Part shown: in pieces, positions 15,440-31,283 of the stretch
Layout: every line of letters begins with the position of its first letter
Numbering within the stretch: the stretch's first letter is position 1
Assembly: GCA_025210735.1 (NCBI GenBank)
Contig: JAOARD010000040.1
Span: 27,347 to 91,346, forward strand
Length of the DNA stretch: 64,000 nt
From: Bacteroidales bacterium
GTDB taxonomy: Bacteria > Bacteroidota > Bacteroidia > Bacteroidales > UBA6680
Direction of reading: 5' to 3'
The notes under the pieces: model-generated
What the model was told of the DNA's origin: nothing
What the model saw: the letters and a program-made list of their open reading frames with translations, nothing else
Databases searched by the model: none
Position numbers and translations under genes: made by a program

Positions 15440-15916
15440 CTACTTATTACCTTTTAATGAGTTGTAAAGTTCCTGGTTGCGTTCAAGTTCTCTGTTTAGT
15501 GACTCTTTAAGTTCGTTTTTATCATTTAGCAGATCTCCGGTAAGACCTTTGTAATTGTCAATCATCATTCTTAGGTCGTCTATATGTGCCTTTAGCTGCG
15601 ATATTAGTGAATCTTTGTTTGTGCATGATTCGCATTTACCGGTACTTATGCTTTCGGTTTTTTCTGTTGTTGTATTATTGTTCTCTTTCCAGTTTGTTTT
15701 ACCAAATACCAGATAATCCATGCTGTAGTTAAACTGTATACAAAAGTCATGCAGTAACTCAAGGCTTATCTTGGTTCTTCCTTTAAGTATCTCTGTTAAT
15801 TTCTGGGGTGAATATCCAAGTCGTTTAGCAAGGTCGTTATTAGATTGGATAATCCCGTTATCCTTTAAAGCATCCAGTTCTGATTGAAATCTGTTTCTAA
15901 GCTCTTTCTGATTCAT
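15440..15916 (-). CDS. XRE-family HTH regulator with C-terminal coiled coil (CI-like candidate regulator of the tail module)
   Basis: LAKRLGYSPQKLTEILKGRTKISLELLHDFC HTH; coiled-coil C-terminus; divergent from the tail gene cluster; preceded by the repeated leader element. Confidence 0.6.
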   Translation of the reverse strand: MNQKELRNRFQSELDALKDNGIIQSNNDLAKRLGYSPQKLTEILKGRTKISLELLHDFCIQFNYSMDYLVFGKTNWKENNNTTTEKTESISTGKCESCTNKDSLISQLKAHIDDLRMMIDNYKGLTGDLLNDKNELKESLNRELERNQELYNSLKGNK

Positions 15917-16125
15917 TTGTCGTCTTTTTCATCTGTTTATAATTGTTTTTTCATTTGCCAGATGGAACTCCGCATAATAATCATCCTCGTGTGTGTGAAT
16001 GACCATTCTCATGCTTCGTTTCATCTGTTTATAATTTGTTTTCCAGTTGCCAGATAGAACTCGCATAATAATCATTCCTATATGCAAATGACTATTCTTT
16101 TGCTTTGTCTCATTTTTATCTGGTT
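15917..16125 (-). repeat. Two tandem copies (second degenerate) of the roughly 100-bp conserved start-codon-proximal element, copy A
   Basis: Reverse complement reads AAACAGATGAAACGAAGCATGAGAATGGTCATTCACACACACGAGGATGATTATTATGCGGAGTTCCATCTGGCAAATG...AAACAGATGAAA; about 85% identical to copies at 27.88, 33.50 and 41.32 kb. Confidence 0.8.
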
Positions 16126-16483
16126 GCAGAATGAAGGTTAGTATAAAAGTTGCATAAATGCATATTATAATCTACAACTTTTATATTTGGCCATATTTTC
16201 TGCTAAAAACCATATTTGTCTCATTTATCTAATTTACGATGAATATTAGCACTATATAATCTTGTACAATCTACGGCACTAAAATTTATCATACTATCCT
16301 TAATAAAACTTTCTAAATACAGAAATTCTGTATATATTTGTAGAAAGTATTGCGCAATATACAAAAAATACCCGTCATTCTAATAAATAAAGAATTATTG
16401 TAGTTGGTTATCTGCAATGTCGGGTACATTAATTAATGTAATATGTAACAAGCATTATACGCTGCTTCTGACTAAAGAGATAG

Positions 16484-16777
16484 TTGATTTTGCCGATTGC
16501 ATATAACAAAAGGGAAATTATAATATATGTAAAAATTAACTGTATGGCTTATTATCCAAAACCTGAACATCCCCAGAAACAGGAAATTGAAAACCGTATA
16601 GTGTGTCTAAGACAACGAATTAATGAGTTAAGAGAGAGAGATTGCAACGAAGAGAATATCAGAGAGATATCACTATTATCTCATAAAGTAGAGGTTGCAC
16701 AAAACAGGTTAAACGGAACATTCGGAAGTTCCGTTACAGAAACATTTAAAGTAGAATATTTTAATATAAAGGACTGA
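16484..16777 (+). CDS. Hypothetical protein (tail-module accessory)
   Basis: ORF only; likely start at MAYYPKPEHP; coiled-coil-like middle. Confidence 0.3.
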   Translation: MILPIAYNKREIIIYVKINCMAYYPKPEHPQKQEIENRIVCLRQRINELRERDCNEENIREISLLSHKVEVAQNRLNGTFGSSVTETFKVEYFNIKD

Positions 16778-16783
16778 ATAATT

Positions 16784-17044
16784 ATGAAAAACAAAGAGTT
16801 AGTAACAAAAGCCCCAAATCATATACGCAGATATAAAGAGATTCAGTTAGTATCTACAGAGTTATTAAAGACTTACAGGTCAAATAAAGTGATAGAATTT
16901 ATTAATAATAATTACTTTATTGGCGAAGATCTGTTCTGGAAGATAATAGGAATGAACCTTAACGATATTGATTTTATAACAGAAGACTCAAGCTGTATAT
17001 ACAAATCTATATTTGATAAGAAACGACGTAAGATAGCGATTTAG
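16784..17044 (+). CDS. Hypothetical protein
   Basis: ORF followed by hairpin CCCTGCAATACTACATTGCAGGG plus T-run (17075-17108). Confidence 0.3.
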   Translation: MKNKELVTKAPNHIRRYKEIQLVSTELLKTYRSNKVIEFINNNYFIGEDLFWKIIGMNLNDIDFITEDSSCIYKSIFDKKRRKIAI

Positions 17045-17271
17045 TGAATCCTTATTCTGTACTCTTATAATAGTTATCCCTGCAATACTACATTGCAGGG
17101 ATTTTTTTATTATCTAAATACTGAAAACGTGTATTTAATACAGAATAATATTTCAAATATACTGATTTAAAACTGTATGGATACACAAAACCAAGACATG
17201 GTAATGCTTTTACTGTATTCTTTACAGGATAGAGTGTATGGCTGTTTACTGAATTTGTGTAGTCAGAGATA

Positions 17272-17748
17272 ATGTACCATCTTTGTAATGTCGAAAGGGA
17301 ACAACGAATAAACAACACGATTATGAGAATTGATATTTATACAGAAATTAAGGATATATTAGAATCGAGTAAAGAGTTTAGAACAGTAACTCTTTATAAA
17401 GATCAGTTTAACAGGTTACCACTTGATGCCTCTTTAGAGAGACCTGCAGTGTTAATTGACATAGCAAATGTGAACTGGAAAAGTTTGTCTAAAGGGGTTA
17501 GACATGGTGATATGGTAGTTGGTATCTATCTGATAGTTGGAGCAAACAACAATCTTAATAGTTCAATTACAGCAGAGAACGATACCGCTGCCATAAACCT
17601 TCTTGATAAAACAGGAGAGATACTTGATGGTTTTGTATTTAATAACGGATGCCGATTACAACGAGTATCAGATAAGGCAATAAAACATACATCATCGCTA
17701 AGCATATATAGAATTGAGTATACAATGCTTGTATCATTAGGAGAGTAA
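17272..17748 (+). CDS. Hypothetical tail-associated protein (possible tail completion/terminator); likely start MRIDIYTE at 17323
   Basis: Position immediately upstream of the sheath; size about 140 aa typical of tail terminator/completion proteins; no motif recognised. Confidence 0.3.
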   Translation: MYHLCNVEREQRINNTIMRIDIYTEIKDILESSKEFRTVTLYKDQFNRLPLDASLERPAVLIDIANVNWKSLSKGVRHGDMVVGIYLIVGANNNLNSSITAENDTAAINLLDKTGEILDGFVFNNGCRLQRVSDKAIKHTSSLSIYRIEYTMLVSLGE

Positions 17749-17753
17749 CAGAT

Positions 17754-18008
17754 ATGGATATTAAGTATTGGATCTTAACAGGTGTTGTATCGGTATTTTT
17801 TACTCTATCTATGCTATTTCTTAGAATATGGCTTAACAGAGTGCTGCGTAAGTTCGATAACCTTACCGATTCGGTAAACGATCTTAAAGCAAGTTTTATG
17901 CTGCAAAAACACGATTCTGTAGCAATAAGGGAGGAGATAAAACGGCACGATATCAGAATTAATAACCATGCCGACCGGATACGGGAATTAGAGATATTAA
18001 TAAAGTGA
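17754..18008 (+). CDS. Single-TM plus coiled-coil small protein (holin-like candidate)
   Basis: N-terminal TM WILTGVVSVFFTLSMLFLRIWL then charged coiled coil. Confidence 0.35.
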   Translation: MDIKYWILTGVVSVFFTLSMLFLRIWLNRVLRKFDNLTDSVNDLKASFMLQKHDSVAIREEIKRHDIRINNHADRIRELEILIK

Positions 18009-18034
18009 TAACCCAACTAAACATCTATGAATTA

Positions 18035-18211
18035 TGCTTGACAGAATTTTTAAAAATTGGAAGACTACGATATTTGGTTTATCGATGATAGCTTTTTGCT
18101 TTGTTTTAGTAGGAGCAGGTAAAGCCTCATTATCAGAGGTGGGAACATTTATACTGGGAGGCTTTGCCCTGTTCTTTACAAAAGACGGAACACCCGATAA
18201 CCAGAGTTAGA
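18035..18211 (+). CDS. 58-aa two-TM small membrane protein (holin-like candidate, below ORF-track cutoff)
   Basis: MLDRIFKNWKTTIFGLSMIAFCFVLVGAGKASLSEVGTFILGGFALFFTKDGTPDNQS read directly from sequence. Confidence 0.3.
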
Positions 18212-18316
18212 TTCAGATATCTGCAGTAGCGCGCTCATAAGTATGCAGATATAATCAGAGAGAATTAAAGTAATCTGTTGATACAGATGACATTTTGAAA
18301 CGAATTAATTATTCGT

Positions 18317-19558
18317 ATGGGATTGCTATACCCATATGAGACTATTTATAAATTAAAAATCAATTGTAAAATGGGTTTACCAAATGTTAAGATTAACATT
18401 ACTAACGGTGCATTAGGTACTGTTGATGCCAAAAACGGCGGTGTAGCAGCAATGATTCTGCGCGGAACAACAAAAGGTGGTGAGGATGTACAACCGGATC
18501 CGGTAAGTACACCAATTGTTCTAAACAGCTTAAATGATGCCGTAAAGAACAATATTACACCTGAGTACGATTCAGAAAGAGGAGTAAATGCATATCATCA
18601 TATTAAAGAGTTTTATGATGAGGCTGGCGAGGGTGCAAAGCTATGGGTAATGGTTGTTGATAAGTCGGTAGAGATGAATAATCTTGTGTCTGCACAACAC
18701 CCTGAGTTTGCAAAGAAACTTATTGATGCCGGACAAGGTGAGATCAGATTGTTAGGACTTACTGGTGCTGTAGTTGAGACTCCTACAATTACAAAGGGAC
18801 TTCAGACAGATGTTGCTAATGCAATAAATGGTGCACAAACATTTGTAGGAAACTATGTTGAGAAGATTGCTCCGTTTATCACAGTACTTGAGGGTAAGAA
18901 TTGGGATAAGTCAGCAACAGATATTGAGAATCTTCGTGAGGGTGATGATAACCGTGTTTCGGTTGCTCTATGTAGCTCAAAAACCGATGGTTCTGCATCA
19001 ATAGGTCTTGTACTTGGTCGTTTGGCTAAGGTTGAAGAGCAGACACGTATCAGCCGTGTTAAGGATGGTTCTCTGTCAATTAACAAGGCGTATTTCTCAA
19101 ACGGAGAGATTGTTGATAACGCAACAGCGGAGTCGTTACACGACAAGGGATATGTTGTAATGCGTACATTCCCAAGAACAAACGGATACTTCTTTGCAAG
19201 TGACTACACAGCAACAAAAGCATCTGACGATCTGAACAGAATCTCATTGGTTCGTACTATTGATAAGGCACTTATGATTGCTTACGATACATATATCAAC
19301 TCTGTTGATGATGAGATTGAGATGGATAGTAAGGGTCAGGTTCTTGCCTCTGTAGCAAAATCGCTTGAGACAGATATTGAGGACATGGTTCGTATTCAGA
19401 TGAACGGACAGATCAGCTCATTTGATGCATTTGTTGATCCTGCACAAAACATCATCAGCACCGGACAGCTAAGCGTTGTTTGTAAGATAGTTCCTAAGGG
19501 ATATCTAAATGAGATTGTTGTAGATCTTGGTTTCAGCAATCCGGCATTAAGTAACTAA
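18317..19558 (+). CDS. Contractile tail sheath protein (start possibly MGLPNVKI at 18371)
   Basis: About 400 aa, immediately followed by a 140-aa tube-like protein, frameshift chaperone and tape measure: canonical myovirus order sheath-tube-chaperone-TMP. Confidence 0.6.
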   Translation: MGLLYPYETIYKLKINCKMGLPNVKINITNGALGTVDAKNGGVAAMILRGTTKGGEDVQPDPVSTPIVLNSLNDAVKNNITPEYDSERGVNAYHHIKEFYDEAGEGAKLWVMVVDKSVEMNNLVSAQHPEFAKKLIDAGQGEIRLLGLTGAVVETPTITKGLQTDVANAINGAQTFVGNYVEKIAPFITVLEGKNWDKSATDIENLREGDDNRVSVALCSSKTDGSASIGLVLGRLAKVEEQTRISRVKDGSLSINKAYFSNGEIVDNATAESLHDKGYVVMRTFPRTNGYFFASDYTATKASDDLNRISLVRTIDKALMIAYDTYINSVDDEIEMDSKGQVLASVAKSLETDIEDMVRIQMNGQISSFDAFVDPAQNIISTGQLSVVCKIVPKGYLNEIVVDLGFSNPALSN

Positions 19559-19591
19559 TTGTAAGAACATAAAAAAAATTAAGTAAAGAAT

Positions 19592-20014
19592 ATGGCAGAG
19601 TTTAATAGCAGACAGTATCAGTTTTCAGACATTCAGGTAGTTATAAAAGGTAGAACTATCACTGGTTTGAGAGGAATTAAGTATAAGGTTTCTCAGGATA
19701 AAGAGGTTGTGTATGGAGCCGGTAACAAAGGTCAGTTTATTCAGAGAGGTAATATTTCATATGACGGAGAGATTTCGTTGTTGCAGAATGAGCTTCTTGC
19801 ACTTGAGCGTTATGCACGCGAAGAGGGCTTTGAAGGGCTACACGATCTTCAGTTAAACATAGTAGTGGCTTATGCTCCTGAAACAGGACTTCCGCTTACA
19901 ACAGATGTTATCAGAGGCGTTGAGTTTACATCAGTTGATACCGGTATGAGCCAGGGAGATAAGATGATGGAGGTAACACTTCCGTTTATCGCTCTTGATA
20001 TCAAAAAGGGTTAA
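19592..20014 (+). CDS. Tail tube protein
   Basis: 140 aa, beta-rich, follows sheath; attenuator hairpin after it. Confidence 0.6.
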   Translation: MAEFNSRQYQFSDIQVVIKGRTITGLRGIKYKVSQDKEVVYGAGNKGQFIQRGNISYDGEISLLQNELLALERYAREEGFEGLHDLQLNIVVAYAPETGLPLTTDVIRGVEFTSVDTGMSQGDKMMEVTLPFIALDIKKG

Positions 20015-20030
20015 TTATAAAGTAAAGCTG

Positions 20031-20060
20031 AAAAGGCTCTTAGCGGAGCCTTTTGCTTTC
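20031..20060 (+). terminator. Intrinsic terminator/attenuator between tube and chaperone genes
   Basis: AAAAGGCTCTTAGCGGAGCCTTTTGCTTTC. Confidence 0.5.
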
Positions 20061-20105: not shown

Positions 20106-20411
20106 ATGAGTAAAGAGTATAAAGGGCAGTTATCTGCAGCAGAGATTGCCGAGTTAAAAGCAAAGCATAAAGATATTTTTCAGTATAAAGTTGATGGTAA
20201 AATCTGCTACCTGCGCGATGTTACTATTGATGATATAGACTATGCTCAGACAGTTAAGAAGAGTAATATAGGGTTTAAGATGATGATTATTGATTCTATA
20301 TGGCTTGCAGGATGTGAGGAGATAAGATCAAATAAACGATATAAACTGGGATTGTCATCATTTGTAAGTGACCTTATAGAGATTGAGGTAGGTGAGTTGG
20401 ACAGGCTTTAG
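20106..20411 (+). CDS. Tail assembly chaperone (gpE/G-like), probable -1 frameshift extension to 20566
   Basis: 101 aa between tube and tape measure; -1 frame is open from 20396 to a TAA at 20564-20566 and encodes ...ADTVVEKTDSIRQINAQLRYYFKIDPKGLSIYERAKLYNELIWIRKMERGK with no ATG of its own. Confidence 0.5.
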   Translation: MSKEYKGQLSAAEIAELKAKHKDIFQYKVDGKICYLRDVTIDDIDYAQTVKKSNIGFKMMIIDSIWLAGCEEIRSNKRYKLGLSSFVSDLIEIEVGELDRL

Positions 20412-20648
20412 CCGATACTGTTGTTGAGAAAACAGACAGTATTCGGCAGATAAACGCCCAGTTACGATACTACTTTAAGATAGATCCCAAAGGACTAAGT
20501 ATTTATGAGAGAGCAAAACTCTACAATGAGCTAATCTGGATCAGAAAGATGGAGAGAGGTAAATAACCTCTCTTCTTTAGCCCCTAAACTAAACAACTCT
20601 ACTAAAGCAAAGCTCTCAGACAATGTAAAAATTAAATCAATTTAAAAT

Positions 20649-23489
20649 ATGTCAGATAATTATGATAAGATACTGAAGGCTGTTGAAGGTACCAATAATA
20701 GTTTGCAGGTTATTATTGCCGACCTGGCAAAAATACCAAAAGGTTCAGATGATGCTGTACTTAAAACTTTAGGTGGTAACTGGATGCAGCTTTTGGGTGC
20801 TATAGAGAGCTATGGAGCCGATGTTGAAGATACAGAGAATGAGTTATCGGATATACCGGGCGAGTTTAAGAATATTTTAGATAAGAACAACAGAGAGTTA
20901 CGTACTATATACGATGAGTTTGTACGCGATATGTTTGATGTTCTGTATCGTATAAAAGACATACAGTCACAGAGCAGAACGTTACAGACAGGCAGAACAG
21001 AACCAGCAGATATCAGACTCCTGAATACTACATCCCCGTTAGATTCAGGAAACATGAGTAGTATAGCTCCGTTAATGTTATCACCTGCTAATAATAACGG
21101 TATTAGTAATCCTGAACTTATGTTGCCTCAGCCAAACAGAGGAACCTCAGGAGCTATGTTGCCGGTGGCAAATAGCAGAAGAAACGAAGATGTTAATTCA
21201 ATAATAGAGAATACACGTGGTACTCAGCTTATGTTACCACAATCAAGCAGAGCTATGCTTCCGGTACCTCACAGATCAACTGTTAATAGTAACAGACCTG
21301 TAGTAACACCGGGAGATAATATAGTACATACACCACAGATTATTATGTCTCCTTCAGCTAACAGAAGTGAGAGAAGAGATTTGTACTCTGTAATCAGGAA
21401 TATATCAAGACCTATAGATATAACACCTGTGAATAGTGGCTCCGATAGCAGAACAGGTAACAGATCTGGTATTAGCAGGGCATTTGGCGGAATGAGAAGA
21501 GGTGTAGGAAAAGCTTTTGGAGGAATAAAAGGTGGATTAGGAAAGGCTCTGGGTGGTATAGGAGGCGGAATGCTTAAGGCAAACCCCTATGTTATGGCTG
21601 CATCAAAGGTTGCAGGAGTAATGTACGATGCCGGTAAAGCTGTTGTAGATGCCACAATGAAGTACGATAAGTATAATGATACATTGCAACGTACCTTCAG
21701 AGATACAACAAAGGCTGGTAATGCAATGGATATGCTTAAGAACTTTGCTACCGATACACCTTTCCAGATTGATGAGCTTACAGGATCATTCAGTCAGCTT
21801 ACCAAGGATGGTGTTGGACCAACCAAAGCACAGATGAAAAGTCTGGGTAATGTAGCATCATATAATGGACTAAGCTTCTCTGATATGACAAAGGCTCTTG
21901 TAGCAGCAGAGTCGGGTAAGGTAGACAGTTTGAGTGCACTTGGTGTTAAAGCAAAGGTTAATGGCGATAAAATATCGGTTGTATTTAAAGGGCAGAAAAA
22001 GGAGATTGAGAATACGGCGGCTGGTATACGTAAATATGTAACAGAGCTTGGTAATATGCCGGGAGTTGCAGGAAGTATGGCTGCTGCAAATGATACTATT
22101 GGAGCATCTATCCAAAATCTTGGTGAATCATGGACAGGCATGTTGGCATCTATTGGCGATGGACGCATGGGACCTCTTCAGAGTGTTTTGGATGGGCTTG
22201 GTGATGGCCTTAACTCAATTGGCGAGTGGTTTGAGATACCTGTTAGTGACAAAATAATGGAGGAGAAGGCCGAGATAAATGGTCTTGTTAATGCCATTAT
22301 TGCACTTAATGAAGGTGATTCAATGAGATTAGATCTGCTTAATCAGTTACAGCAGAGATATCCGGATGTAATTGGTGCAATTGATCTTGAGAAATTATCG
22401 AACGAACAGCTTGCAGAGAGTCTTAAACGTGTTAATGGTGAGTATGAGCGAAAATATAATTCTCAGAAAGCTAATGAAGAGAGAGCAGAAGAGCAGGAGG
22501 AGATTGATGAGTTAAAGCAGGAGCTTTTGGAGGTGAATACAGCCAGGGGTATCAAAGCTCGTATGAGTCAATTAAATAATGAACTTTTCAAAAAAGCCGG
22601 AGGTAAATGGCAAGAGTATCAAACATCTATGTTTGGTTCTGGTAGTATGCATTACAACAGTAAGGTTATTGGAACTGTAGAGTTTGAGGAGTATCAGAAA
22701 CTTCAGGAACAGCTTGGAGATCTTGGATTTAAGTATAAGCTTGGTACTGTAAATTATGAAGAAAAGATAAAGAGTATTCAGGCAGAGATTAGTAAACATG
22801 AGAAGAAGCAAAAGGATATTACTAATGTAGAGCAGTTAGGAAGACGTTCCAGTGTTTTTGAAGATGCCAAAGATCTGGGAATTGATGTTACAGATGATAA
22901 GAATGGTAACTATGCCAGATTGTTCGGGCAAGACAAAGCTCTGTATGATAAGTTTGATAAGATAGTTAAAGAGGATTATAAAGATCTTGACGATACTGAA
23001 TTTAAATTTCTGGAGGAGGTTCTTTCAGGAAAACTGGTAAAGAGTCAGAAGAGTAAGAAGGAGGTTCTTGATAAATCATCTAAAGTGGATGCCAGTGTAT
23101 TTAAAGGTAATAAGAAAGTTAAGGAAGAATATATAAACCTTAAGAAGCAGAGTGTTTATGAACTTGATGATAAAGAGACTAAGCGCCTTAAAGAGATACT
23201 TAGCATGCCTTCTGCTCAGAAAAGTTTTAATTCTAAAAAAGGCAAAGCCGGAAATGAGAATTCATCATTAACAGGATCAGAAACATCAAGAGTAAATAAC
23301 GGACCACTTGAGGTTGCATCGGGAGGATCACGTGCTACCCATATAAATACCACCGTGCAGAAACTTGTTGAGAGTATTGTGATAAATGCCCAAGGTAAAG
23401 ATATGGGCTATATAAAAGAGAATATACAGGCAACAGTTGAGGAGGCTCTGCTGCGTGCTCTGAACTCGGCTAACGCTATAGCAAATTAA
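20649..23489 (+). CDS. Tail tape measure protein
   Basis: 946 aa; Gly-rich GKAFGGIKGGLGKALGGIGGG segment; long coiled-coil, Lys/Glu-rich C-terminal half; position after the chaperone. Confidence 0.7.
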   Translation: MSDNYDKILKAVEGTNNSLQVIIADLAKIPKGSDDAVLKTLGGNWMQLLGAIESYGADVEDTENELSDIPGEFKNILDKNNRELRTIYDEFVRDMFDVLYRIKDIQSQSRTLQTGRTEPADIRLLNTTSPLDSGNMSSIAPLMLSPANNNGISNPELMLPQPNRGTSGAMLPVANSRRNEDVNSIIENTRGTQLMLPQSSRAMLPVPHRSTVNSNRPVVTPGDNIVHTPQIIMSPSANRSERRDLYSVIRNISRPIDITPVNSGSDSRTGNRSGISRAFGGMRRGVGKAFGGIKGGLGKALGGIGGGMLKANPYVMAASKVAGVMYDAGKAVVDATMKYDKYNDTLQRTFRDTTKAGNAMDMLKNFATDTPFQIDELTGSFSQLTKDGVGPTKAQMKSLGNVASYNGLSFSDMTKALVAAESGKVDSLSALGVKAKVNGDKISVVFKGQKKEIENTAAGIRKYVTELGNMPGVAGSMAAANDTIGASIQNLGESWTGMLASIGDGRMGPLQSVLDGLGDGLNSIGEWFEIPVSDKIMEEKAEINGLVNAIIALNEGDSMRLDLLNQLQQRYPDVIGAIDLEKLSNEQLAESLKRVNGEYERKYNSQKANEERAEEQEEIDELKQELLEVNTARGIKARMSQLNNELFKKAGGKWQEYQTSMFGSGSMHYNSKVIGTVEFEEYQKLQEQLGDLGFKYKLGTVNYEEKIKSIQAEISKHEKKQKDITNVEQLGRRSSVFEDAKDLGIDVTDDKNGNYARLFGQDKALYDKFDKIVKEDYKDLDDTEFKFLEEVLSGKLVKSQKSKKEVLDKSSKVDASVFKGNKKVKEEYINLKKQSVYELDDKETKRLKEILSMPSAQKSFNSKKGKAGNENSSLTGSETSRVNNGPLEVASGGSRATHINTTVQKLVESIVINAQGKDMGYIKENIQATVEEALLRALNSANAIAN

Positions 23490-25931: not shown

Positions 25932-26264
25932 ATGATAGATATAAAACATATTGATACCATTCCTGAAGGAGGTGATCCCTCGATGCTTGGCGATATTGAT
26001 ATATCAGGAGGAGACCTGAATATTGTAAAGAATGCTGTTTATCAGCATCAACGAGATATTATAATGATGCACAAAGGCGAGGTTAAGTGTGCTCCGGCAA
26101 TGGGGGTAGGTGCATCAGATTTTATCGATGATGCTGATGAGGCCACAATTATCGGGGTTATTCGTCGTGAATTAGTACGCGACAAGCAGACTGTAGAGAG
26201 GATAGGTTTTAGAAATGGCAAACTTGAAATAGAGGCTTATTATGAAGAAGATAAAGACGGTTGA
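25932..26264 (+). CDS. Baseplate wedge gp25/gpW-like protein
   Basis: 110 aa, position between spike and gpJ-like. Confidence 0.4.
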   Translation: MIDIKHIDTIPEGGDPSMLGDIDISGGDLNIVKNAVYQHQRDIIMMHKGEVKCAPAMGVGASDFIDDADEATIIGVIRRELVRDKQTVERIGFRNGKLEIEAYYEEDKDG

Positions 26265-26490
26265 TGGACAGAATGTATTTGATATTGCTGTACAGGAGTA
26301 TGGTAATGTAGAGGCTGCTTTTGAGGTGCTAAGACTTAATCCTCATATTGTTAGCAGCGATACAGATTACAACTATGAGTTATCAAAAAGTATAAAACCA
26401 GGAGTTGAACTGAGTATTGATACTGATAGTGATCTGTACAGACCCAAAATAAAACGAGAGTTGGAGAACAAAAACATAATATCAGATTAA
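26242..26490 (+). CDS. Hypothetical small baseplate-associated protein
   Basis: ORF, overlaps neighbours by a few codons. Confidence 0.3.
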   Translation: MKKIKTVDGQNVFDIAVQEYGNVEAAFEVLRLNPHIVSSDTDYNYELSKSIKPGVELSIDTDSDLYRPKIKRELENKNIISD

Positions 26491-26491: not shown

Positions 26492-27343
26492 ATGGAACAG
26501 TATAATACGTTGGCAGCCTGCAGAGAGGCTGTAGAGAGCAAATCGCGCGAGAGATTTGGTGACAAACTGGATACTTCCGGAGCTTCAGAATGGGGATTAT
26601 GGATAGGAATTCTCTCATACTGTATCTGGATATTTAACAATATTCTAAATCTCTTTAAGAGAGATGTTGAGGCCAGTATACAGAGTAAAAAGATGTTTCT
26701 TTTACCATGGTACGCAAAGATGATAAAGGAGTTTCAGCTTGGCGACAGTCTTGTTACAGATAAGAGTGGGATTACTTCATATCCGGTTGTTGATGAGAAG
26801 AAGAGAATAATTAAACATGTAACTATTAGAGAGACAACAGAGGGATTATCTATTAAGGTTGCAAAAGAGATTGATGATAACGGGGTTAAAAAACTGGCAC
26901 CTTTAAACAGGGCTACAGATGAGTTTATACAGTTTAAACGTTATGTAGAGAATCGTAAAGCTCCGGGAACAAAGATAGAGTATATATCGTTAGGTCCTGA
27001 TGTGGTATACCTTGATACAGATATCTATTACGACTCACTCTATATCCCAATGTCTGGCGACAATGCAGTTGATTCGGTTAAAGGTAATGTGCTCAGAACA
27101 CTTGAGGAGTATAAAGAGAGCCTTGGTTACGAGGGGATTATTTATGTGTCTGATCTTGAGAAGAGACTATCTGAGACCGATGGTGTAGTTACAGCAAAGA
27201 TAAACCTTATAAAAGGAACTCAGGGTAGTGCAGTTACCACGTTTGATGTTGCCTATATTCTTAAATCAGGTTATTTCAACTTTGATGACAGTGTAGTTGT
27301 AAACATGCATAATAGTGCTGATTTTCTTAAGACTATAAACTAA
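26492..27343 (+). CDS. Baseplate J-like protein
   Basis: 283 aa, synteny W-J-I-H. Confidence 0.45.
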   Translation: MEQYNTLAACREAVESKSRERFGDKLDTSGASEWGLWIGILSYCIWIFNNILNLFKRDVEASIQSKKMFLLPWYAKMIKEFQLGDSLVTDKSGITSYPVVDEKKRIIKHVTIRETTEGLSIKVAKEIDDNGVKKLAPLNRATDEFIQFKRYVENRKAPGTKIEYISLGPDVVYLDTDIYYDSLYIPMSGDNAVDSVKGNVLRTLEEYKESLGYEGIIYVSDLEKRLSETDGVVTAKINLIKGTQGSAVTTFDVAYILKSGYFNFDDSVVVNMHNSADFLKTIN

Positions 27344-27383
27344 TATAGGTTTAATATGACCATTAAAAAACAAATTTAGACAT

Positions 27384-27866
27384 ATGAATCTTAATTTAGA
27401 TATAAAAAGCTTTGTAAACAGGATGATTCCTGTTCACAAAAGACAGCCTGTGCGTCTGAAAATACTTGGATTCTTTGCCGATCTGATGTCTGAGATATAT
27501 AACGATTATGCAAGCTACAGGGATGAGTTGTTATATCGGTTTAACGTTACAGGAGAGGTGCTTAGTCTTAAGAATTTTCTTAACCGGCAGATCCCTGAGG
27601 CAGGTGGCAGAATAGATATTATACACGGAAAAGAGAATGGGTTCTCAATTCAGCTAAGATCTGAGCAGGGGTATAATTATCTGCAACTAAGCAATAGCGA
27701 TGGTAACCAGTTTGTAGAGGTAGCTTTGCGCGGAGAGATATTAGATCCTTTTACAGAGTCGTTTGCAGTAGAGGTGCCTGAGCATGTAAATACCGATAAA
27801 GTGCTTGCAATTGTTAACGAGTACCGACTTGCAGGTAAGAGCTTTAAAATAATCAATAAACAGTAA
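27384..27866 (+). CDS. Tail protein gpI-like
   Basis: 160 aa preceding the fibre gene; upstream AAACAAATTTAGACATATGA start context shared with lanB. Confidence 0.4.
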   Translation: MNLNLDIKSFVNRMIPVHKRQPVRLKILGFFADLMSEIYNDYASYRDELLYRFNVTGEVLSLKNFLNRQIPEAGGRIDIIHGKENGFSIQLRSEQGYNYLQLSNSDGNQFVEVALRGEILDPFTESFAVEVPEHVNTDKVLAIVNEYRLAGKSFKIINKQ

Positions 27867-27874
27867 CAAAACTA

Positions 27875-27975
27875 AATACATATGAAACGAAGCATGAGAA
27901 AGAATTTTCACACACACGAGAATGATTATTATGCGAAGTTCCATCTGACCATTAAAAAGAAAAAATAAACAGATG
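27875..27975 (+). repeat. Conserved start-codon-proximal element, copy B
   Basis: ACATATGAAACGAAGCATGAGAAAGAATTTTCACACACACGAGAATGATTATTATGCGAAGTTCCATCTGACC...AAACAGATGAAAAG; ends in the fibre gene ATG. Confidence 0.8.
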
Positions 27976-30009
27976 AAAAGACAAGTACAGGCAGAGGGTG
28001 TACGTCAGTGGTATGGCGATGATCTGATATCTCTGCAGAGTGAGCCGATGAAGGTTCTTGACAAATTTTTTGAGGATTATGGTAATATGATAATCTCAGG
28101 ATGTAAGGTTAAAGGTAATAGTATAACCCCTGGTTTAGTAGGATTAACTTATGAAAACGAAGGTAGTTCTATATATAAGGTTTGTGAATTCAGAGGACTT
28201 GACTCTGTAGAGTCATGGCCGGTATTTCTGTCGTTATCAAAAGAGGTTATAGATGGTAAATATGCCTCAGAGCAGACAAAACCAATTATTGAGCAGTATA
28301 TTGCTAAACCCGATTATCTTGAACCGGATGGTATCTACATAAGTATTAATAGTAACGGACAGGTATTTGCATATGAAAGCGATGATGCAATAGAGACCAG
28401 AATGGTTACATTACGTGAAATAAATGACTGGAATAGATCCAGAGCAGATGCAGTATCAGATGTAAGAGGAGGAGTTCCTTCTAATGTAAATACACTTAAG
28501 CAGCTTTATAACTGGGTGCAGGCTAACTATCTGCAGAAGACATTAAGAAGTAATAGCCATACATCAACATCAACAGAGAGTGTTGCAACTAGTAAGGCAG
28601 TTAACGATTCAAAAACAAGCGTTATATCAACAATCAGAGATGGTGCTGCTCCGGCATATAATACATTTAAAAAACTGTATGATTATGTTGTTGGCAACTA
28701 TATTCTTAACTCAAGAGTTAATGACAGTCACTCGTCTGCATCAACAAATAATGTAGCATCAAGTAAAGCAGTATTGGATGCAAAAACAAATGTGTTGTCA
28801 ACAATACGTGGTGGTATATCAACAACGTATGATACCCTTAAGAAGTTATATGATTATGTTGTTAATAACTATATATCTAATGGCAGAGTAAGTAACCTGC
28901 ATACATCTCAGTCAACAACAAATGTTGCTTCAAGTAAGGCTGTTTATGATGCAAAGAGTAGTGTTCTGTCTACAATTCGTGGAGGAGTATCTTCGTCATA
29001 CGATACCCTTAAGGAGTTATATGATTATGTTGTTAATAATTATGTTTCTAATGGTAGGGTAAGTAATCTACATACATCAGACTCAACAACAAATGTGGCC
29101 TCAAGTAAAGCTGTAAAAGATGCAAAAAGTAGTGCTGTTTCAATAGTAGTTGGAGGAGAGGCAACATATAATACATTAAAGAAACTGTATAATTATGTTG
29201 TAGGTAACTATGTTTCAAAATCAAGTATTAATAGTAGCCATACCTCAACCTCAACCTCAACTGTAGCATCAAGTAAAGCTGTTTATGATGCAAAGAATAG
29301 TGTACTGTCTACAATTCGTGGAGGAGTATCTTCGTCATATGATACCCTTAAGGAGTTATTGGATTATGTGACTGGTAATTATGTCTCTAATTCAAGGGTG
29401 AGTGATAATCATACTTCAAGTTCTAAAACAGATGTAGCGTCAAGTAAGGCTGTAAAAGATGCAAAGAGCAGTGTTATTTCAACATTACTTGGAGGAGAAT
29501 CTACATATAATACGTTAAAGAAAATGTATAATTATATTGTAGGTAATTATATCGCAAAATCTAAAATTAGTAATAGTTATACATCATCTTCTACAACCAA
29601 TGTTGCTTCAAGTAGAGCTGTAAGAGATAGTGTAAGTAGTGTAAAGAGAGAGCTTGGATTTAATATTATTGACTCATGGAGTAAATCTCATAATTCACAA
29701 TCTGGATACGAGATACAGCTAACTGCTGTTAAGTATGTAAATGGAATGGTTCGTTTATGTATTAAATCAGATGATAGTCCTGGGCAGGTTACAGATCCTG
29801 GATATTTACTTGAACTACCAGAGATGTACAGACCTGTTGAGGATGTAACATTTGTTGGGTCAGGCTCTATTAGTGGTAGAGATATTAATCTGACAAAATA
29901 TAAATTATTAAAATCAGGTAGATTGGAAAATGGAACAATTACGCATGCTACTGTAATGTATCAGGCAGTTATGACAATGAGTGAGTTTGATGATTATTAT
30001 GTTTGTTAA
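27973..30009 (+). CDS. Tail fibre protein with about 6.5 tandem ~58-aa repeats
   Basis: 678 aa; repeats of ...HTSxSTTNVASSKAV(Y/K)DAKSSVLSTIRGGVSSSYDTLK(E/K)LYDYVVNNYVSNGRVSN between roughly 28540 and 29650. Confidence 0.7.
   Translation: MKRQVQAEGVRQWYGDDLISLQSEPMKVLDKFFEDYGNMIISGCKVKGNSITPGLVGLTYENEGSSIYKVCEFRGLDSVESWPVFLSLSKEVIDGKYASEQTKPIIEQYIAKPDYLEPDGIYISINSNGQVFAYESDDAIETRMVTLREINDWNRSRADAVSDVRGGVPSNVNTLKQLYNWVQANYLQKTLRSNSHTSTSTESVATSKAVNDSKTSVISTIRDGAAPAYNTFKKLYDYVVGNYILNSRVNDSHSSASTNNVASSKAVLDAKTNVLSTIRGGISTTYDTLKKLYDYVVNNYISNGRVSNLHTSQSTTNVASSKAVYDAKSSVLSTIRGGVSSSYDTLKELYDYVVNNYVSNGRVSNLHTSDSTTNVASSKAVKDAKSSAVSIVVGGEATYNTLKKLYNYVVGNYVSKSSINSSHTSTSTSTVASSKAVYDAKNSVLSTIRGGVSSSYDTLKELLDYVTGNYVSNSRVSDNHTSSSKTDVASSKAVKDAKSSVISTLLGGESTYNTLKKMYNYIVGNYIAKSKISNSYTSSSTTNVASSRAVRDSVSSVKRELGFNIIDSWSKSHNSQSGYEIQLTAVKYVNGMVRLCIKSDDSPGQVTDPGYLLELPEMYRPVEDVTFVGSGSISGRDINLTKYKLLKSGRLENGTITHATVMYQAVMTMSEFDDYYVC
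28540..29650 (+). repeat. Intragenic tandem repeat array (about 175-183 bp unit) inside the tail fibre gene
   Basis: Six full and one partial protein-level repeats; units 3 and 5 nearly identical (AVYDAK(S/N)SVLSTIRGGVSSSYDTLKEL). Confidence 0.7.
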
Positions 30010-30318
30010 ATGCAAGGATTTATAGGAGGTAGCTTTGCAAGATATATAAGAGGAGAGGAATCACATTATAATGATATTGATATGTATTTTGATTATAATC
30101 AGTTGCCCGAGTTGATATCTCATCTTACAAGTATTGGTGTTGCAATATCAGAGCATAATGGAAATGGGGTTATATGGTGCTCTACCATACACAATAACAT
30201 GGATATTATTGTATTTCAGCCAGATTTTGAATATGAAACAGAGCAAGTAATGGGATTTACTCTGTTGACATCAGAAACTATAGATAATATATATAGGTAT
30301 GCAGCAAGCATTAAGTGA
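30010..30318 (+). CDS. Minimal nucleotidyltransferase-fold protein, paralog 1
   Basis: GGSFARYIRGEESHYNDIDMYFD matches the Pol-beta/MNT hG[GS]x(9-13)DhD motif and NMDIIVF supplies the third carboxylate; start abuts the fibre stop. Confidence 0.5.
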   Translation: MQGFIGGSFARYIRGEESHYNDIDMYFDYNQLPELISHLTSIGVAISEHNGNGVIWCSTIHNNMDIIVFQPDFEYETEQVMGFTLLTSETIDNIYRYAASIK

Positions 30319-30350
30319 GAGAAGAGATTTTATCTCTCTTCTTTCTTAAA
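30317..30350 (+). terminator. Hairpin plus T-run between nucleotidyltransferase paralogs 1 and 2
   Basis: GAGAGAAGAGATTTTATCTCTCTTCTTTCTT. Confidence 0.5.
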
Positions 30351-30361
30351 AACAATTTATT

Positions 30362-30703
30362 ATGCAAGGATTTATAGGAGGTAGCTTTGCTAAGTATATA
30401 AGAGAAGAAGTTACGCAGTATAACGATATTGATATATACTTTGATTATAGTCAGTTCATTGAACTTATGCCTGAATTGATGAAAAGAGGGGTTGCTCTGT
30501 CAGAACACCCGGATCATAAGATAGTAGCTTTTACGGCTAAACATAAGGGTATTGATGTTATGGTGTTTAAATCAGATTTTGAATACAAAATAGAGCAAGT
30601 AATGGGTTTTACGCTTTTAACAAAAGATACGATGGATAAGATATACAAAAATGCAGAAATGCGTAGATTGTTAAGAGAGCGTATGTTAAGTAAAAAAAGG
30701 TGA
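30362..30703 (+). CDS. Minimal nucleotidyltransferase-fold protein, paralog 2
   Basis: GGSFAKYIREEVTQYNDIDIYFD ... GIDVMVF; about 50% identical to paralog 1. Confidence 0.5.
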   Translation: MQGFIGGSFAKYIREEVTQYNDIDIYFDYSQFIELMPELMKRGVALSEHPDHKIVAFTAKHKGIDVMVFKSDFEYKIEQVMGFTLLTKDTMDKIYKNAEMRRLLRERMLSKKR

Positions 30704-30708
30704 TATTT

Positions 30709-31035
30709 ATGTATACAGCAAAAGGGTTTATAGGTGGTAGTTTTGCCAAATTTATAAGACAGGAGGTACCTGATTATAACGATATTGATATCTACTTTGA
30801 TTTTGATCAGTTACCTGAACTTATGGCAGAGCTTACTGCAAAAGGAGTTGGTGTTATTGAACATCCTGATAATGAAATTGTATCATTTTCAGCACAGCAT
30901 AACGGATTTGATATTATGGTATTTAATCCCGATTTTGAATATGGGACAGAGGATCTGGTTGGCTTTACTCTGTTAAGCAGAGCTACAATGGATAGGATTT
31001 ATAGTTATGCAGCAGAGATAGATAGTAAAGTATAG
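30709..31035 (+). CDS. Minimal nucleotidyltransferase-fold protein, paralog 3
   Basis: GGSFAKFIRQEVPDYNDIDIYFD ... GFDIMVF; ATG at 30709 preferred over the GTG at 30700. Confidence 0.5.
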   Translation: MYTAKGFIGGSFAKFIRQEVPDYNDIDIYFDFDQLPELMAELTAKGVGVIEHPDNEIVSFSAQHNGFDIMVFNPDFEYGTEDLVGFTLLSRATMDRIYSYAAEIDSKV

Positions 31036-31232
31036 TTTTATATGTAACTACACCACTCTGTTTAGTATAATAGTCTGAAACTGACAAAATAATGATATGT
31101 GTCAATTTTATGAATACAATATTGTATAGGTAATAATAATTATGTAAATTGAAGAGTGATTATTGTAGAGTTAACCCCGACAATGCACATCGGGTATTAA
31201 TTTAGTGTAATAATCCGTAACAGATCTAAAAG

Positions 31233-31268
31233 GTAATAGCCTCAGTATTGAGGCTATTACTGTTTTAT
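31233..31268. terminator. Bidirectional terminator between tail module and flotillin gene
   Basis: GTAATAGCCTCAGTATTGAGGCTATTAC followed by TGTTTTA. Confidence 0.6.
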
Positions 31269-31283
31269 ATTGTAAGATTTAAC

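What the first reader, a model, noticed from the sequence alone, without database searches (positions are those of the whole stretch)
15440..31272. Headless contractile phage-tail module (candidate R-type tailocin) bounded by housekeeping genes
Between an SDR gene (14646-15365) and the flotillin operon (31284-33328) lies a co-directional run consistent with a complete contractile tail and fibre. The parts are a possible terminator, sheath, tube, frameshifted chaperone, 946-aa tape measure, gpU/D-like, spike, gp25-like, baseplate J-like, gpI-like and a repeat-rich fibre. There are no capsid, portal, terminase, integrase or replication genes. The divergently transcribed XRE/CI-like regulator at 15440-15916 is the only regulator. 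This architecture is that of tailocins (R-pyocin-like particles) rather than a prophage. I am not aware of tailocins being well characterised in low-GC Bacteroidota. No endolysin is visible; only two small holin-like membrane ORFs at 17754-18211 are, so the release route is unclear.
Basis: partly seen in the sequence, partly recalled or inferred. Interest (0 to 1): 0.75.

Follow-up and report, generated by a model that had tools for sequence, protein, structure and literature searches.

The report
Headless contractile phage-tail gene cluster
An uncultured Bacteroidales bacterium keeps a complete, selectively maintained contractile phage-tail gene set with no head genes, which makes it a good candidate for a tail-shaped bacteriocin (tailocin) in a phylum where I found none described.

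Summary
Window 16544-31035 (+) is a co-directional tail operon with an HTH regulator (15440-15916, -) on the left and housekeeping genes on both sides.

- **Sheath:** its model has a contractile-sheath fold; the best match is the R2 pyocin sheath (E 2e-12).
- **Tail set:** all 11 core tail gene families and a tail-completion family are shared with real Bacteroidota myophages.
- **Head genes:** in about 50 of 80 related genome loci, Mu-like head genes lie just upstream of the sheath. HMMs of those head families find nothing in the 64 kb window or 10 kb beyond each end.
- **Maintenance:** wherever assemblies span a junction, the element sits at the same junctions. No tail ORF is broken. Tail genes are under purifying selection (pN/pS 0.10-0.20).
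- **Swapped parts:** the spike tip, the fibre tip and three orphan paralogs downstream differ between strains as a cassette (dS about 1).

Two caveats remain. The lysis slot keeps only two membrane proteins; the endolysin present in relatives is missing. The chaperone's -1 extension is conserved, but its slippery heptamer is gone.

Verdict: probably a domesticated R-type tailocin, function untested. Similar headless modules recur in Bacteroidota, including a monophyletic Chitinophaga clade.

The parts
15440..15916 (-). HTH_3 (XRE/Cro-CI type) regulator, 158 aa, with a coiled-coil C-terminus and no detected S24 peptidase domain. It is transcribed divergently from the tail operon.
   Evidence: Pfam HTH_3 4.7e-06; phrog transcriptional regulators; PADLOC HTH_VI 6e-09. 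No non-synonymous change against L001.
15927..16075 (.). About 1.6 tandem copies of a roughly 95-nt dispersed intergenic repeat, lying in the divergent control region. I first took it for an operator pair. It is not specific to the element.
   Evidence: Direct repeat D4. Further copies at 33501-33597, 27882-27947 and 41306-41347. Several assemblies break here.
16182..16340 (+). Two Bacteroidetes-type -7 boxes (TATATTTG) at 16182 and 16333. They are candidate promoters for the rightward genes.
   Evidence: Pattern scan. Inference only.
16544..16777 (+). Small early ORF, 77 aa, coiled-coil-like, of unknown role. The longer TTG start at 16484 is not conserved.
   Evidence: ORF list. Called as 77 aa in other assemblies. 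The 5' extension is frame-broken in L001 and L003.
16784..17044 (+). Small early ORF, 86 aa, of unknown role. It is specific to this species' element.
   Evidence: No Pfam or PADLOC hit.
17076..17102 (+). Hairpin followed by a T-run (intrinsic-terminator-like), between the two small early ORFs and the tail operon.
   Evidence: No + strand -7 box lies between it and 17323.
17323..17748 (+). Tail-completion or terminator-type protein, 141 aa (family f16, phrog_6911).
   Evidence: phrog_6911 3e-17, hit by 31 of 31 family members. The family HMM hits Peternella_1 gp29, annotated 'tail completion (VirFam)', at 4.8e-27. Other headless lineages keep it.
17754..18008 (+). Membrane protein, 84 aa, with an N-terminal TM segment and a coiled coil (XhlA-like). 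It occupies the lysis-cassette position.
   Evidence: Weak XhlA 1.5e-04, below the Pfam cut-off; phrog_1009 2e-07. TM prediction, and the same architecture in relatives' families f27, f42 and f62.
18034..18210 (+). Two-TM 58-aa protein, holin-like.
   Evidence: Hydropathy scan. Position in the lysis slot.
18317..19558 (+). Contractile tail sheath (DUF2586). The likely true start is M19 at 18371.
   Evidence: AF2 pLDDT 83. Foldseek: R2 pyocin sheath E 1.8e-12, PVC, AFP, diffocin CD1363, T4 gp18 and Mu.
19592..20014 (+). Tail tube protein, 140 aa.
   Evidence: phrog_4579 2e-14. Family f5 follows the sheath in 69 loci. The HMM hits Peternella gp45 'tail protein' at 8e-31. The fold was not tested.
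20106..20566 (+). Tail assembly chaperone: a 101-aa ORF (20106-20411) plus a 56-aa extension in the -1 frame (20396-20566).
   Evidence: The -1 frame is open in 69 of 72 related loci. Most have A_AAA_AAG or G_GGA_AAC two codons before the stop. The window's extension matches an HMM of relatives' extensions at E 2e-18, but the window has G_GAC_AGG at the slip position.
20649..23489 (+). Tape measure protein, 946 aa. Relatives have about 600 aa.
   Evidence: TMP_3 1e-09; phrog_5062 2.6e-24. Family sizes.
23503..24150 (+). DUF6046 protein, 215 aa. It sits in the position of Mu gp43 (tube initiator).
   Evidence: DUF6046 8e-19; phrog_5233. The Mu parts list is from PMC11915804. The role is positional.
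24157..25143 (+). Baseplate hub, 328 aa.
   Evidence: phrog_4930 2.2e-72. Equivalent to Peternella gp49 'baseplate hub', 1.6e-79.
25187..25927 (+). Candidate central spike, 246 aa. Its C-terminal 55 aa or so are hypervariable between strains.
   Evidence: Family f4 occurs in 70 loci. The role is positional. C-terminus dS 0.83 and dN 0.58, against dS 0.076 and dN 0.003 for the N-terminus.
25932..26490 (+). Two small baseplate proteins, 110 aa (25932-26264) and 82 aa (26242-26490). By position the first corresponds to a gp25/Mu gp46-type wedge protein. The second belongs to a family with LysM/Tail_X-like members.
   Evidence: Families f7 and f9. Weak Phage_tail_X 5e-03. LysM in 2 of the 150 scanned members, presumably in this family. 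The roles are positional.
26492..27866 (+). Two wedge-type baseplate proteins, 283 aa (26492-27343) and 160 aa (27384-27866). They sit in the positions of Mu gp47 and gp48.
   Evidence: phrog_38413 3e-35. Families f8 and f10. Equivalent to Peternella gp58 and gp59. No Pfam hit in 25 members each.
27973..30009 (+). Tail fibre, 678 aa: a conserved N-terminal 155 aa, then 57-aa repeats of variable copy number, then a divergent C-terminal domain of about 115 aa.
   Evidence: TRF period 171; phrog_4757 and phrog_7489. The fibre is 793 aa in L083 and split in L088. C-terminus dS 1.18 and dN 0.42.
30010..31035 (+). Three tandem orphan paralogs (102, 113 and about 107 aa) with invariant GGS...DxD...D residues. 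They are swapped between strains together with the fibre tip. Their role is unknown; fibre-tip accessory or chaperone is my guess.
   Evidence: Repeat D2; alignment A5. Only this species in 5.8 billion clusters, and 4 hits among 1.84 billion representatives. dS 0.8-1.0 with omega 0.14. The structure model failed at pLDDT 50.
31232..31261 (.). Bidirectional hairpin terminator that closes the tail operon and the convergent flotillin operon.

Best explanation
This is a chromosomally fixed, head-less derivative of a temperate Bacteroidota myophage. The ancestor belongs to the lineage with a DUF2586 sheath and a Mu-like head, to which Flavobacterium phage pippi8-1 and Winogradskyella phage Peternella_1 belong. 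The host has kept the element as a contractile tail-particle (R-type tailocin) locus.

Proposed working; only the gene content, conservation and selection are shown, and the rest is inferred:
1. The HTH regulator keeps the rightward promoter(s) off.
2. On induction, the two small early ORFs and then the 14-kb late operon are transcribed, reading past the hairpin at 17076-17102.
3. The TMP and its chaperone, the hub, the spike and the wedge proteins build a simple Mu-type baseplate.
4. Tube and sheath polymerise to a length set by the 946-aa tape measure.
5. The tail-completion protein caps the particle.
6. Six fibres carry a strain-specific C-terminal domain.
7. Particles leave the producer by lysis that involves the XhlA-like and two-TM membrane proteins, but must use a host or unrecognised murein hydrolase.
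8. On a related target cell the fibres bind, the sheath contracts, and the tube and spike puncture the envelope.

Strain-to-strain swapping of the spike tip, the fibre tip and the three downstream paralogs retargets the particle.
For: **Sheath fold.** The AF2 model (pLDDT 83) matches the R2 pyocin sheath at E 1.8e-12, and also PVC, AFP, diffocin, T4 and Mu sheaths.

**Complete tail set.** All 11 core tail families of 80 related loci, plus the tail-completion family, are present. They map one-to-one onto the tail genes of Peternella_1 and pippi8-1.

**Head loss is real.**
- About 50 related loci carry Mu-like head families directly upstream of the sheath.
- HMMs of those families find nothing in the 64 kb or in 10 kb beyond each end.
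- The flanks are housekeeping genes.

**Maintained, not decaying.**
- The same left and right junctions appear in independent assemblies from several samples.
- No stop or frameshift occurs in any tail gene in three strains.
- pN/pS is 0.10-0.20 from sheath to wedge, and about 0.04 without the TMP, compared with 0.04 in flanking genes.
- 4.7% of random single-base changes would create a stop.

**Specificity cassette.** The fibre C-terminus, paralogs 1-2 and the spike C-terminus have dS 0.8-1.2, against 0.04-0.1 for the core. The paralogs have omega 0.14.

**Precedent in the phylum.** Headless modules of the same family sit among host genes in six Chitinophaga species (monophyletic), a Bacteroidales MAG, a Ca. 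Azobacteroides MAG and a Tannerellaceae MAG.
Against: - No endolysin. Relatives have a T7-lysozyme-type amidase or a GH24 lysozyme between the tail-completion gene and the sheath. This element has none, and no homologue lies anywhere in the window.
- The canonical slippery heptamer of the chaperone is replaced by G_GAC_AGG, so the long chaperone form may not be made.
- Spike, wedge and tube roles rest on position and on homology to phage virion genes, not on tested folds.
- The element occurs in one species only; the next-best sheath is 43% identical. It is therefore young on a phylogenetic scale.
- There is no expression, particle or killing data.
- Head genes elsewhere in the genome cannot be excluded.
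Confidence: 0.6

Rival explanations
1. It is an inert cryptic-prophage remnant. A deletion removed the head, replication and integration genes, and the tail genes simply have not yet decayed.
For: - The element is restricted to one species.
- The endolysin and the slippery site are lost, which looks like the start of decay.
- Remnants do occur in this family: the Ekhidna locus L047 is a truncated near-copy of an intact prophage in the same genome.
Against: - All strains share the same deletion boundaries, so their divergence (tail dS 0.07-0.11) accumulated after the head loss.
- Even so, pN/pS is 0.10-0.20 and none of about 9.1 kb of tail coding sequence carries a stop or frameshift in three strains.
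- The swapped fibre-tip cassette still has omega 0.14-0.2.
Confidence: 0.15
2. It is a tail-donor module that works together with head genes located elsewhere. This would be a split prophage or gene-transfer-agent-like system, or a source of tails for capsid-forming satellites. It would not be a stand-alone killer particle.
For: - The element keeps a tail-completion protein, which forms the head-proximal end of the tail.
- It lacks its own endolysin, which a partner element could supply.
- Only about 84 kb of the genome was inspected.
Against: - No adaptor, portal, Mu-F, protease, capsid or terminase family lies within 25 kb upstream or 43 kb downstream.
- The neck (Mu gpG-like, f20) and adaptor (Mu gp36-like, f14) families that join tail to head in relatives are absent.
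Confidence: 0.1
3. It is a contractile particle used against non-bacterial targets or for another purpose, in the manner of eCIS/MAC systems, rather than as a bacteriocin.
For: - Bacteroidota are known eCIS and T6SS-iii carriers (literature seen).
- The three orphan paralogs with an NTase-like GGS/DxD motif could in principle be cargo or effectors.
Against: - The sequence lineage is that of true phage tails: a DUF2586 sheath, a TMP_3 tape measure and a phage lysis slot.
- No AAA+ ATPase, Afp-type or Tss gene was found.
- The nearest relatives are prophages.
- Fibre-tip swapping within one species fits targeting of kin.
Confidence: 0.07

Closest known systems
R-type pyocins of Pseudomonas aeruginosa (R2; structures 3j9q, 6u5b) and other R-type tailocins
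   Same: - A headless contractile tail operon in the chromosome between housekeeping genes.
- Sheath fold match at E about 1e-12.
- TMP with chaperone, a simple baseplate, and a fibre whose C-terminus varies between strains together with downstream small gene(s).
- An adjacent regulator.
   Different: - The origin is independent: a DUF2586 sheath from a Mu-like-head Bacteroidota phage lineage, with no detectable sequence similarity to P2-type genes.
- No endolysin or spanin, and no PrtR-type S24 repressor.
- Three orphan paralogs take the place of one fibre chaperone.
- Function is untested.
Winoviridae phages: Flavobacterium phage vB_FspM_pippi8-1 (NC_048830) and Winogradskyella phage Peternella_1 (NC_062754). 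Related Bacteroidales prophages (Dysgonomonas, Paludibacteraceae) also belong here.
   Same: - The same tail gene families in the same order, from tail completion through sheath, tube, chaperone, TMP, hubs and small baseplate proteins to the wedge pair.
- The lysis slot lies upstream of the sheath.
   Different: - Those are 35-40 kb phages or prophages with terminase, a DUF935 portal, Mu-F, protease and capsid. The window has none of these.
- The window has a 946-aa TMP and a 678-aa repeat fibre instead of a fibre of about 290 aa.
- Sheath identity is only 25-43%.
Headless DUF2586 tail modules in Chitinophaga (C. tropicalis, C. varians, C. silvisoli, sp. CF418 and two MAGs; loci L004, L005, L007, L008, L014, L030)
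   Same: - Tail-only clusters embedded among host genes, including a TonB-dependent receptor, an MFS transporter and T9SS cargo.
- No head-family hits.
- They keep the tail-completion gene and a TM/coiled-coil lysis protein.
- Three of the six also lack the amidase.
   Different: - They form a separate monophyletic clade, 41-42% identical in the sheath, so the head loss was independent.
- They have a short fibre (f19) plus f23 rather than the repeat fibre and three paralogs.
- To my knowledge they are uncharacterised.
Bacillus subtilis PBSX (xhlA-xhlB-xlyA lysis genes) and diffocin of C. difficile (sheath CD1363, 6gkw)
   Same: - Phage-derived particles kept by the host.
- A membrane protein with an XhlA-like architecture in the lysis cassette.
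- The diffocin sheath is among the fold matches.
   Different: - PBSX has heads and an amidase.
- The XhlA match here is below the Pfam cut-off.
- Those systems are from Gram-positive hosts and unrelated lineages.
eCIS (Afp/PVC/AlgoCIS), T6SS-iii of Bacteroidota, and 'rhapidosomes' seen in Chondrococcus (Flavobacterium) columnaris (PMC2107119)
   Same: - Contractile or tubular phage-tail-like structures in the same phylum.
- Sheath folds are related.
   Different: - No Afp-, Tss- or AAA+ ATPase genes were found in the scans.
- Gene order and the nearest relatives are those of phages.
- The genes for rhapidosomes were never defined in the paper found.

Membership tests
R-type tailocin (phage-tail-like bacteriocin) | Contractile sheath and inner tube genes | tested here: met
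   The sheath fold was confirmed. The tube is supported by family and position only.
R-type tailocin (phage-tail-like bacteriocin) | Full set of tail assembly genes: TMP with chaperone, hub and spike, wedge proteins, fibre, and tail completion | tested here: met
   All core tail families of related functional phages are present and intact. Individual baseplate roles are positional.
R-type tailocin (phage-tail-like bacteriocin) | No capsid, portal, terminase, replication or integration genes | tested here: met
   Head-family HMMs give no hit in the window or in 10 kb beyond each end. Pfam finds only housekeeping genes in the flanks. This is not testable genome-wide.
R-type tailocin (phage-tail-like bacteriocin) | Fixed chromosomal locus, inherited vertically and kept under purifying selection | tested here: met
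   The same junctions occur in every assembly that spans them. pN/pS is 0.10-0.20 with no disrupted ORF. No empty site was found.
R-type tailocin (phage-tail-like bacteriocin) | Own lysis cassette (holin plus endolysin, with or without spanins) for release | tested here: not met
   Only a TM/coiled-coil protein and a two-TM protein are present. The endolysin found in relatives is absent from the window.
R-type tailocin (phage-tail-like bacteriocin) | Stress-responsive regulator pair (for example a PrtR-like cleavable repressor with an activator) | tested here: inconclusive
   An HTH_3 regulator is present, but no S24 peptidase domain was detected. The two small early ORFs have unknown roles.
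R-type tailocin (phage-tail-like bacteriocin) | DNA-free particles that kill related strains | not testable with these tools
   This needs induction, EM and killing assays, and the organism is known only from metagenomes.
Intact temperate myophage (prophage) | Head and packaging module, integrase or transposase, and replication genes contiguous with the tail genes | tested here: not met
   No att-like flanking direct repeats were found.
Extracellular contractile injection system (Afp/PVC type) or T6SS-iii | Afp/Tss-type core genes, an AAA+ ATPase (Afp15/ClpV) and cargo or effector genes | tested here: not met
   No such Pfam or PHROG hits occur in any of the 21 ORFs. The nearest relatives are phages.
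-1 programmed frameshift tail chaperone (G/GT type) | Overlapping -1 ORF conserved in sequence, plus a slippery heptamer | tested here: inconclusive
   The -1 extension is conserved (E 2e-18; open in 69 of 72 loci). The heptamer A_AAA_AAG of relatives is G_GAC_AGG here.

The most novel reading that the evidence does not exclude
Headless tail modules with a DUF2586 sheath are a so far unrecognised class of tailocins, domesticated repeatedly across Bacteroidota. Examples are this Bacteroidales species and a whole Chitinophaga clade, with other isolated headless loci in a Bacteroidales, an Azobacteroides and a Tannerellaceae MAG. This member is released without a dedicated endolysin and is retargeted by swapping a cassette made of the spike tip, the fibre tip and three orphan NTase-motif paralogs.
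Probability: 0.35. Interest if true: 0.7.

Novelty: new member of a known kind. Interest (0 to 1): 0.55.

Why it matters
Tailocins are narrow-spectrum killing particles that shape competition between strains. They are also being engineered as precision antibacterials. The characterised ones come from Proteobacteria and a few Firmicutes.

A maintained, strain-variable tail-only locus in an uncultured Bacteroidales, together with a conserved clade of such loci in cultivable Chitinophaga, would extend the phenomenon to a phylum that dominates gut, soil and aquatic communities. Chitinophaga isolates would provide a testable system.

The missing endolysin raises the question of how such particles get out of a diderm Bacteroidota cell. 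The orphan three-gene cassette tied to the fibre tip may be a new kind of fibre accessory.

Tried and rejected
- **Profile search of PDB sequences.** The sheath, tube and tail-completion families gave no hits.
- **hhalign against single Mu proteins.** Those families compared with Mu gpL, gpM and gp37 gave nothing. The lineage is too divergent for sequence methods, so only the fold search of the sheath model worked.
- **Three paralogs.** There were no Pfam or PADLOC hits. The AF2 model had pLDDT 50 and its Foldseek matches were meaningless. The PDB profile search gave nothing significant. An HMMER scan of 1.84 billion representatives gave only 4 hits. The NTase idea therefore rests on the GGS/DxD/D motif alone.
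- **Operator hypothesis.** I first read the two 44-nt repeats at 15927-16062 as operators. I rejected this as the main reading because the unit is a dispersed repeat of about 95 nt with copies elsewhere in the window.
- **Search for an empty site.**
  - The metagenome scan with the SDR protein found only relatives at 49% identity or less, with no synteny.
  - Exact-protein look-ups of both flanking genes found only contigs that carry the element.
- **Mobility.** I found no att-like direct repeats and no integrase.
- **Homologue search for the tail-completion protein.** It returned only the protein itself, so no alignment-based structure could be made.
- **Close headful phage relative.** I looked in INPHARED and IMG/VR; the best sheath identity was 36-42%.
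- **Papers.** One search was badly framed and gave nothing useful.

Full report
**Source.** The window is part of JGI metagenome 3300039008, contig Ga0400167_130512 (138.6 kb). The same species appears as the GTDB MAG 'Bacteroidales bacterium UBA6680' and in several other samples. A T9SS sorting domain in the window and the taxonomy of all relatives place it in Bacteroidota. GC content is about 0.33 in the flanks and 0.36-0.40 in the tail genes.

**1. The observation.** A co-directional + strand gene run lies between an SDR gene (14646-15365) and a Band_7/flotillin operon (31284-33328, minus strand).

Family scans identify these genes:
- a DUF2586 sheath (7e-51; phrog_907 'tail sheath' 6.5e-41);
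- a 140-aa 'tail protein' (tube);
- a 101-aa chaperone-position ORF;
- a 946-aa tape measure (TMP_3, phrog_5062);
- a DUF6046 protein and a 'baseplate hub' (phrog_4930, 2e-72);
- a fibre with 171-nt tandem repeats.

The divergent ORF at 15440-15916 is an HTH_3 regulator.

The sheath profile found nothing in PDB by sequence, so I modelled it from 24 homologues (pLDDT 83, pTM 0.82). Foldseek returned only contractile sheaths: R2 pyocin 6u5b_A at 1.8e-12, then PVC, AFP, diffocin CD1363, T4 gp18 and Mu. I could not model the tube.

**2. Relatives and head loss.** The next-best sheath in 5.8 billion protein clusters is 43% identical. In phage genomes the family occurs in small temperate Bacteroidota myophages: Flavobacterium pippi8-1/lotta, FPSV and fF4, and Winogradskyella Peternella_1. 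These phages have Mu-like head genes directly upstream of the sheath: a DUF935 portal, Mu-F, a gpG-like neck protein, a DUF1320 adaptor, a protease and a capsid protein.

I fetched 80 genome loci and clustered all their ORFs.
- Eleven tail families, in conserved order, are shared by the window and most loci.
- Eight head or packaging families lie upstream of the sheath in about 50 loci, and all eight are missing from the window.
- HMMs of those eight families, built without the window, give no hit at E<=10 in its six-frame translation. The control HMMs hit at 1e-130 (sheath), 1e-53 (tube) and 1e-19 (tail completion).
- Ten kb beyond each end of the window is also clean.
- I found no integrase, no replication genes and no att-like repeats.

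**3. Maintained or decaying?** Three strain variants (the window, L001/L083 and L003) are 96-98% identical across the element.
- No tail gene has a stop or frameshift.
- pN/pS from the sheath to the last wedge gene is 0.20 against L001 and 0.10 against L003. The L001 counts without the TMP give about 0.04, the same as flanking housekeeping genes (0.04).
- 4.7% of random single-base changes in these genes would create a stop.
- All variants share the same junctions: SDR-HTH on the left, and paralogs-Band_7 on the right. This divergence therefore postdates the head loss.
- The 82-aa baseplate protein was found on 12 contigs, the six shown coming from six samples. Look-ups of the two flanking genes added further samples and found no empty site.

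This argues against an inert remnant.

**4. Specificity parts.** Between the window and L083, the values below come.

| Region | dS | dN | omega |
|---|---|---|---|
| Fibre N-terminal 155 aa | 0.08 | 0 | - |
| Fibre C-terminal ~115 aa | 1.18 | 0.42 | - |
| Spike candidate, first 185 aa | 0.076 | 0.003 | - |
| Spike candidate, last ~55 aa | 0.83 | 0.58 | - |
| Paralog 1 | 1.03 | 0.142 | 0.14 |
| Paralog 2 | 0.84 | 0.120 | 0.14 |
| Paralog 3 | 0.21 | 0.048 | 0.23 |

The number of 57-aa fibre repeats also differs: the fibre is 678 aa here, 793 aa in L083, and split into two ORFs in L088.

Such ten-fold jumps in dS indicate allele replacement by recombination, not local mutation. This is the pattern known for the fibre and chaperone of R-type pyocins (my own knowledge).

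The paralogs are orphans. They occur only in this species among 5.8 billion clusters, and an HMMER scan of 1.84 billion representatives gave four hits. They share invariant GGS, DxD and D residues that resemble a minimal nucleotidyltransferase. No model, fold search or profile confirmed this.

**5. Lysis.** In relatives, the slot between the tail-completion gene and the sheath holds a lysis cassette. It consists of:
- an endolysin, either a T7-lysozyme-type amidase (1e-18 to 1lba) or a GH24 lysozyme (5e-32);
- a protein with one TM segment and a coiled coil;
- a lipoprotein or two-TM protein.

The window keeps only an 84-aa TM/coiled-coil protein (a weak XhlA match, below the Pfam cut-off) and a 58-aa two-TM protein. 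No endolysin homologue lies anywhere in the 64 kb. Three of the six headless Chitinophaga loci also lack the amidase. The release route is unresolved.

**6. Other details.**
- **Tail completion.** The 141-aa ORF at 17323-17748 belongs to phrog_6911 (31 of 31 family members). Its family HMM hits Peternella_1 gp29, annotated 'tail completion (VirFam)', at 4.8e-27. Other headless lineages retain it. For comparison, the corresponding Mu protein gp37 is the tail terminator by cryo-EM, although databases label it 'portal'.
- **Chaperone.** The -1 frame stays open past the stop in 69 of 72 loci. Most carry A_AAA_AAG or G_GGA_AAC two codons before the stop. The window's 56-aa extension matches an HMM of the others at 2e-18. 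The slip position in the window reads G_GAC_AGG, which I cannot explain.
- **Control region.** Candidate Bacteroidetes -7 boxes lie at 16182 and 16333. A hairpin terminator at 17076-17102 separates the two small early ORFs from the late operon. A bidirectional terminator at 31232-31261 closes the operon.
- **Baseplate roles.** The spike and wedge assignments follow the order of the Mu baseplate. They are positional, because no Pfam model hit any of about 25 members per family.

**7. Wider pattern.**
- Other loci with 10 kb upstream and no head-family hit sit among host genes. These are six Chitinophaga species, a Bacteroidales MAG (ExoVII and SpoIIE upstream), a Ca. Azobacteroides MAG (a GyrB-type topoisomerase upstream) and a Tannerellaceae MAG.
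- An Ekhidna locus (L047) also lacks heads but is a truncated near-copy of an intact prophage in the same genome, so I read it as a remnant.
- In a neighbour-joining tree of the sheaths (no bootstrap), the Chitinophaga loci are monophyletic.
- The window lies on a long branch beside head-bearing Bacteroidales prophages, so its head loss was independent.
- Most IMG/VR relatives carry heads.

**8. Comparison and verdict.** The element works like, and has the architecture of, an R-type tailocin. It meets the sequence-testable criteria except for a dedicated endolysin. It is not an eCIS, a T6SS or an intact prophage.

Full-text searches found no characterised Bacteroidota tailocin and no paper mentioning DUF2586. 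The only hits were old reports of 'rhapidosomes' in Flavobacterium columnare. Tailocins have arisen many times from different phages, so this is a new member of a known kind in a phylum where none is characterised. My confidence that it makes functional particles is about 0.6.

Noticed in passing
window 36883-44535: A class I lanthipeptide cluster. It has a LanC-like cyclase (36883-38082), then 11 tandem precursor-like ORFs (38144-41088). All of them share the leader MRKLKLSLKKE(I/V)ISDLE...GG, followed by diverse Cys/Ser/Thr-rich cores. A split LanB dehydratase follows (41423-43648 and 43645-44535).
   Followed up: partly
window 15927-16075, 27882-27947, 33501-33597, 41306-41347: A dispersed intergenic repeat of about 95 nt with an internal CATCTG...CAGATG inverted repeat. 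Two copies lie inside the tail element, in the control region and just upstream of the fibre start codon. Several independent assemblies break at this repeat, and contig DKJY01000139 (L003) begins with an inverted pair of it.
   Followed up: partly
L001 5331-7159 (between the SDR and HTH genes; absent from the window): One strain carries a 1.8-kb insertion that encodes three small lipoprotein-like ORFs with signal peptides and lipobox cysteines; one has MORN-like repeats. None has a PADLOC hit. They look like host accessory genes rather than part of the tail element.
   Followed up: partly
loci L004, L005, L007, L008, L014, L030 (Chitinophaga spp.): A monophyletic clade of headless DUF2586 tail modules in six Chitinophaga species, set among host genes at different loci. 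Each has a divergently oriented tail-completion gene, a TM/coiled-coil protein and, in three of the six, a T7-lysozyme-type amidase. These organisms are cultivable and the modules look like an uncharacterised tailocin family.
   Followed up: partly
loci L027 and L047 (both from Ekhidna sp. contig CBDHDT010000193.1): The same genome holds an intact-looking prophage with heads and a second, near-identical copy that is headless and has a truncated sheath. The second copy looks like a true decaying remnant, and it contrasts with the window's element.
   Followed up: no
loci L038, L053, L054 (Roseivirga): Tail modules that retain only the Mu gp36-like adaptor gene (family f14) from the head set. 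This may be an intermediate stage of head loss.
   Followed up: no
window 20380-20411: The chaperone's conserved slippery heptamer (A_AAA_AAG in most relatives) reads G_GAC_AGG in all three strains of this species. The -1 extension is nevertheless kept open and is still homologous to the relatives' extensions.
   Followed up: partly
window 49592-56449: A run of co-directional small ORFs with strong positive GC skew. Most have no Pfam hit. The run includes a MarR regulator, a faint TerB-like hit, DUF6584 and an HTH/SocA-Panacea antitoxin-type gene (55321-56115). A second SocA_Panacea gene lies at 2440-2949.
   Followed up: no
RefSeq NC_000929 (locus L089 6955-7503): Phage Mu gp37 is labelled 'portal protein' in RefSeq and PHROGs (phrog_490). 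Cryo-EM shows that it is the tail terminator (PMC11915804). The same mislabel probably affects phrog_209.
   Followed up: yes
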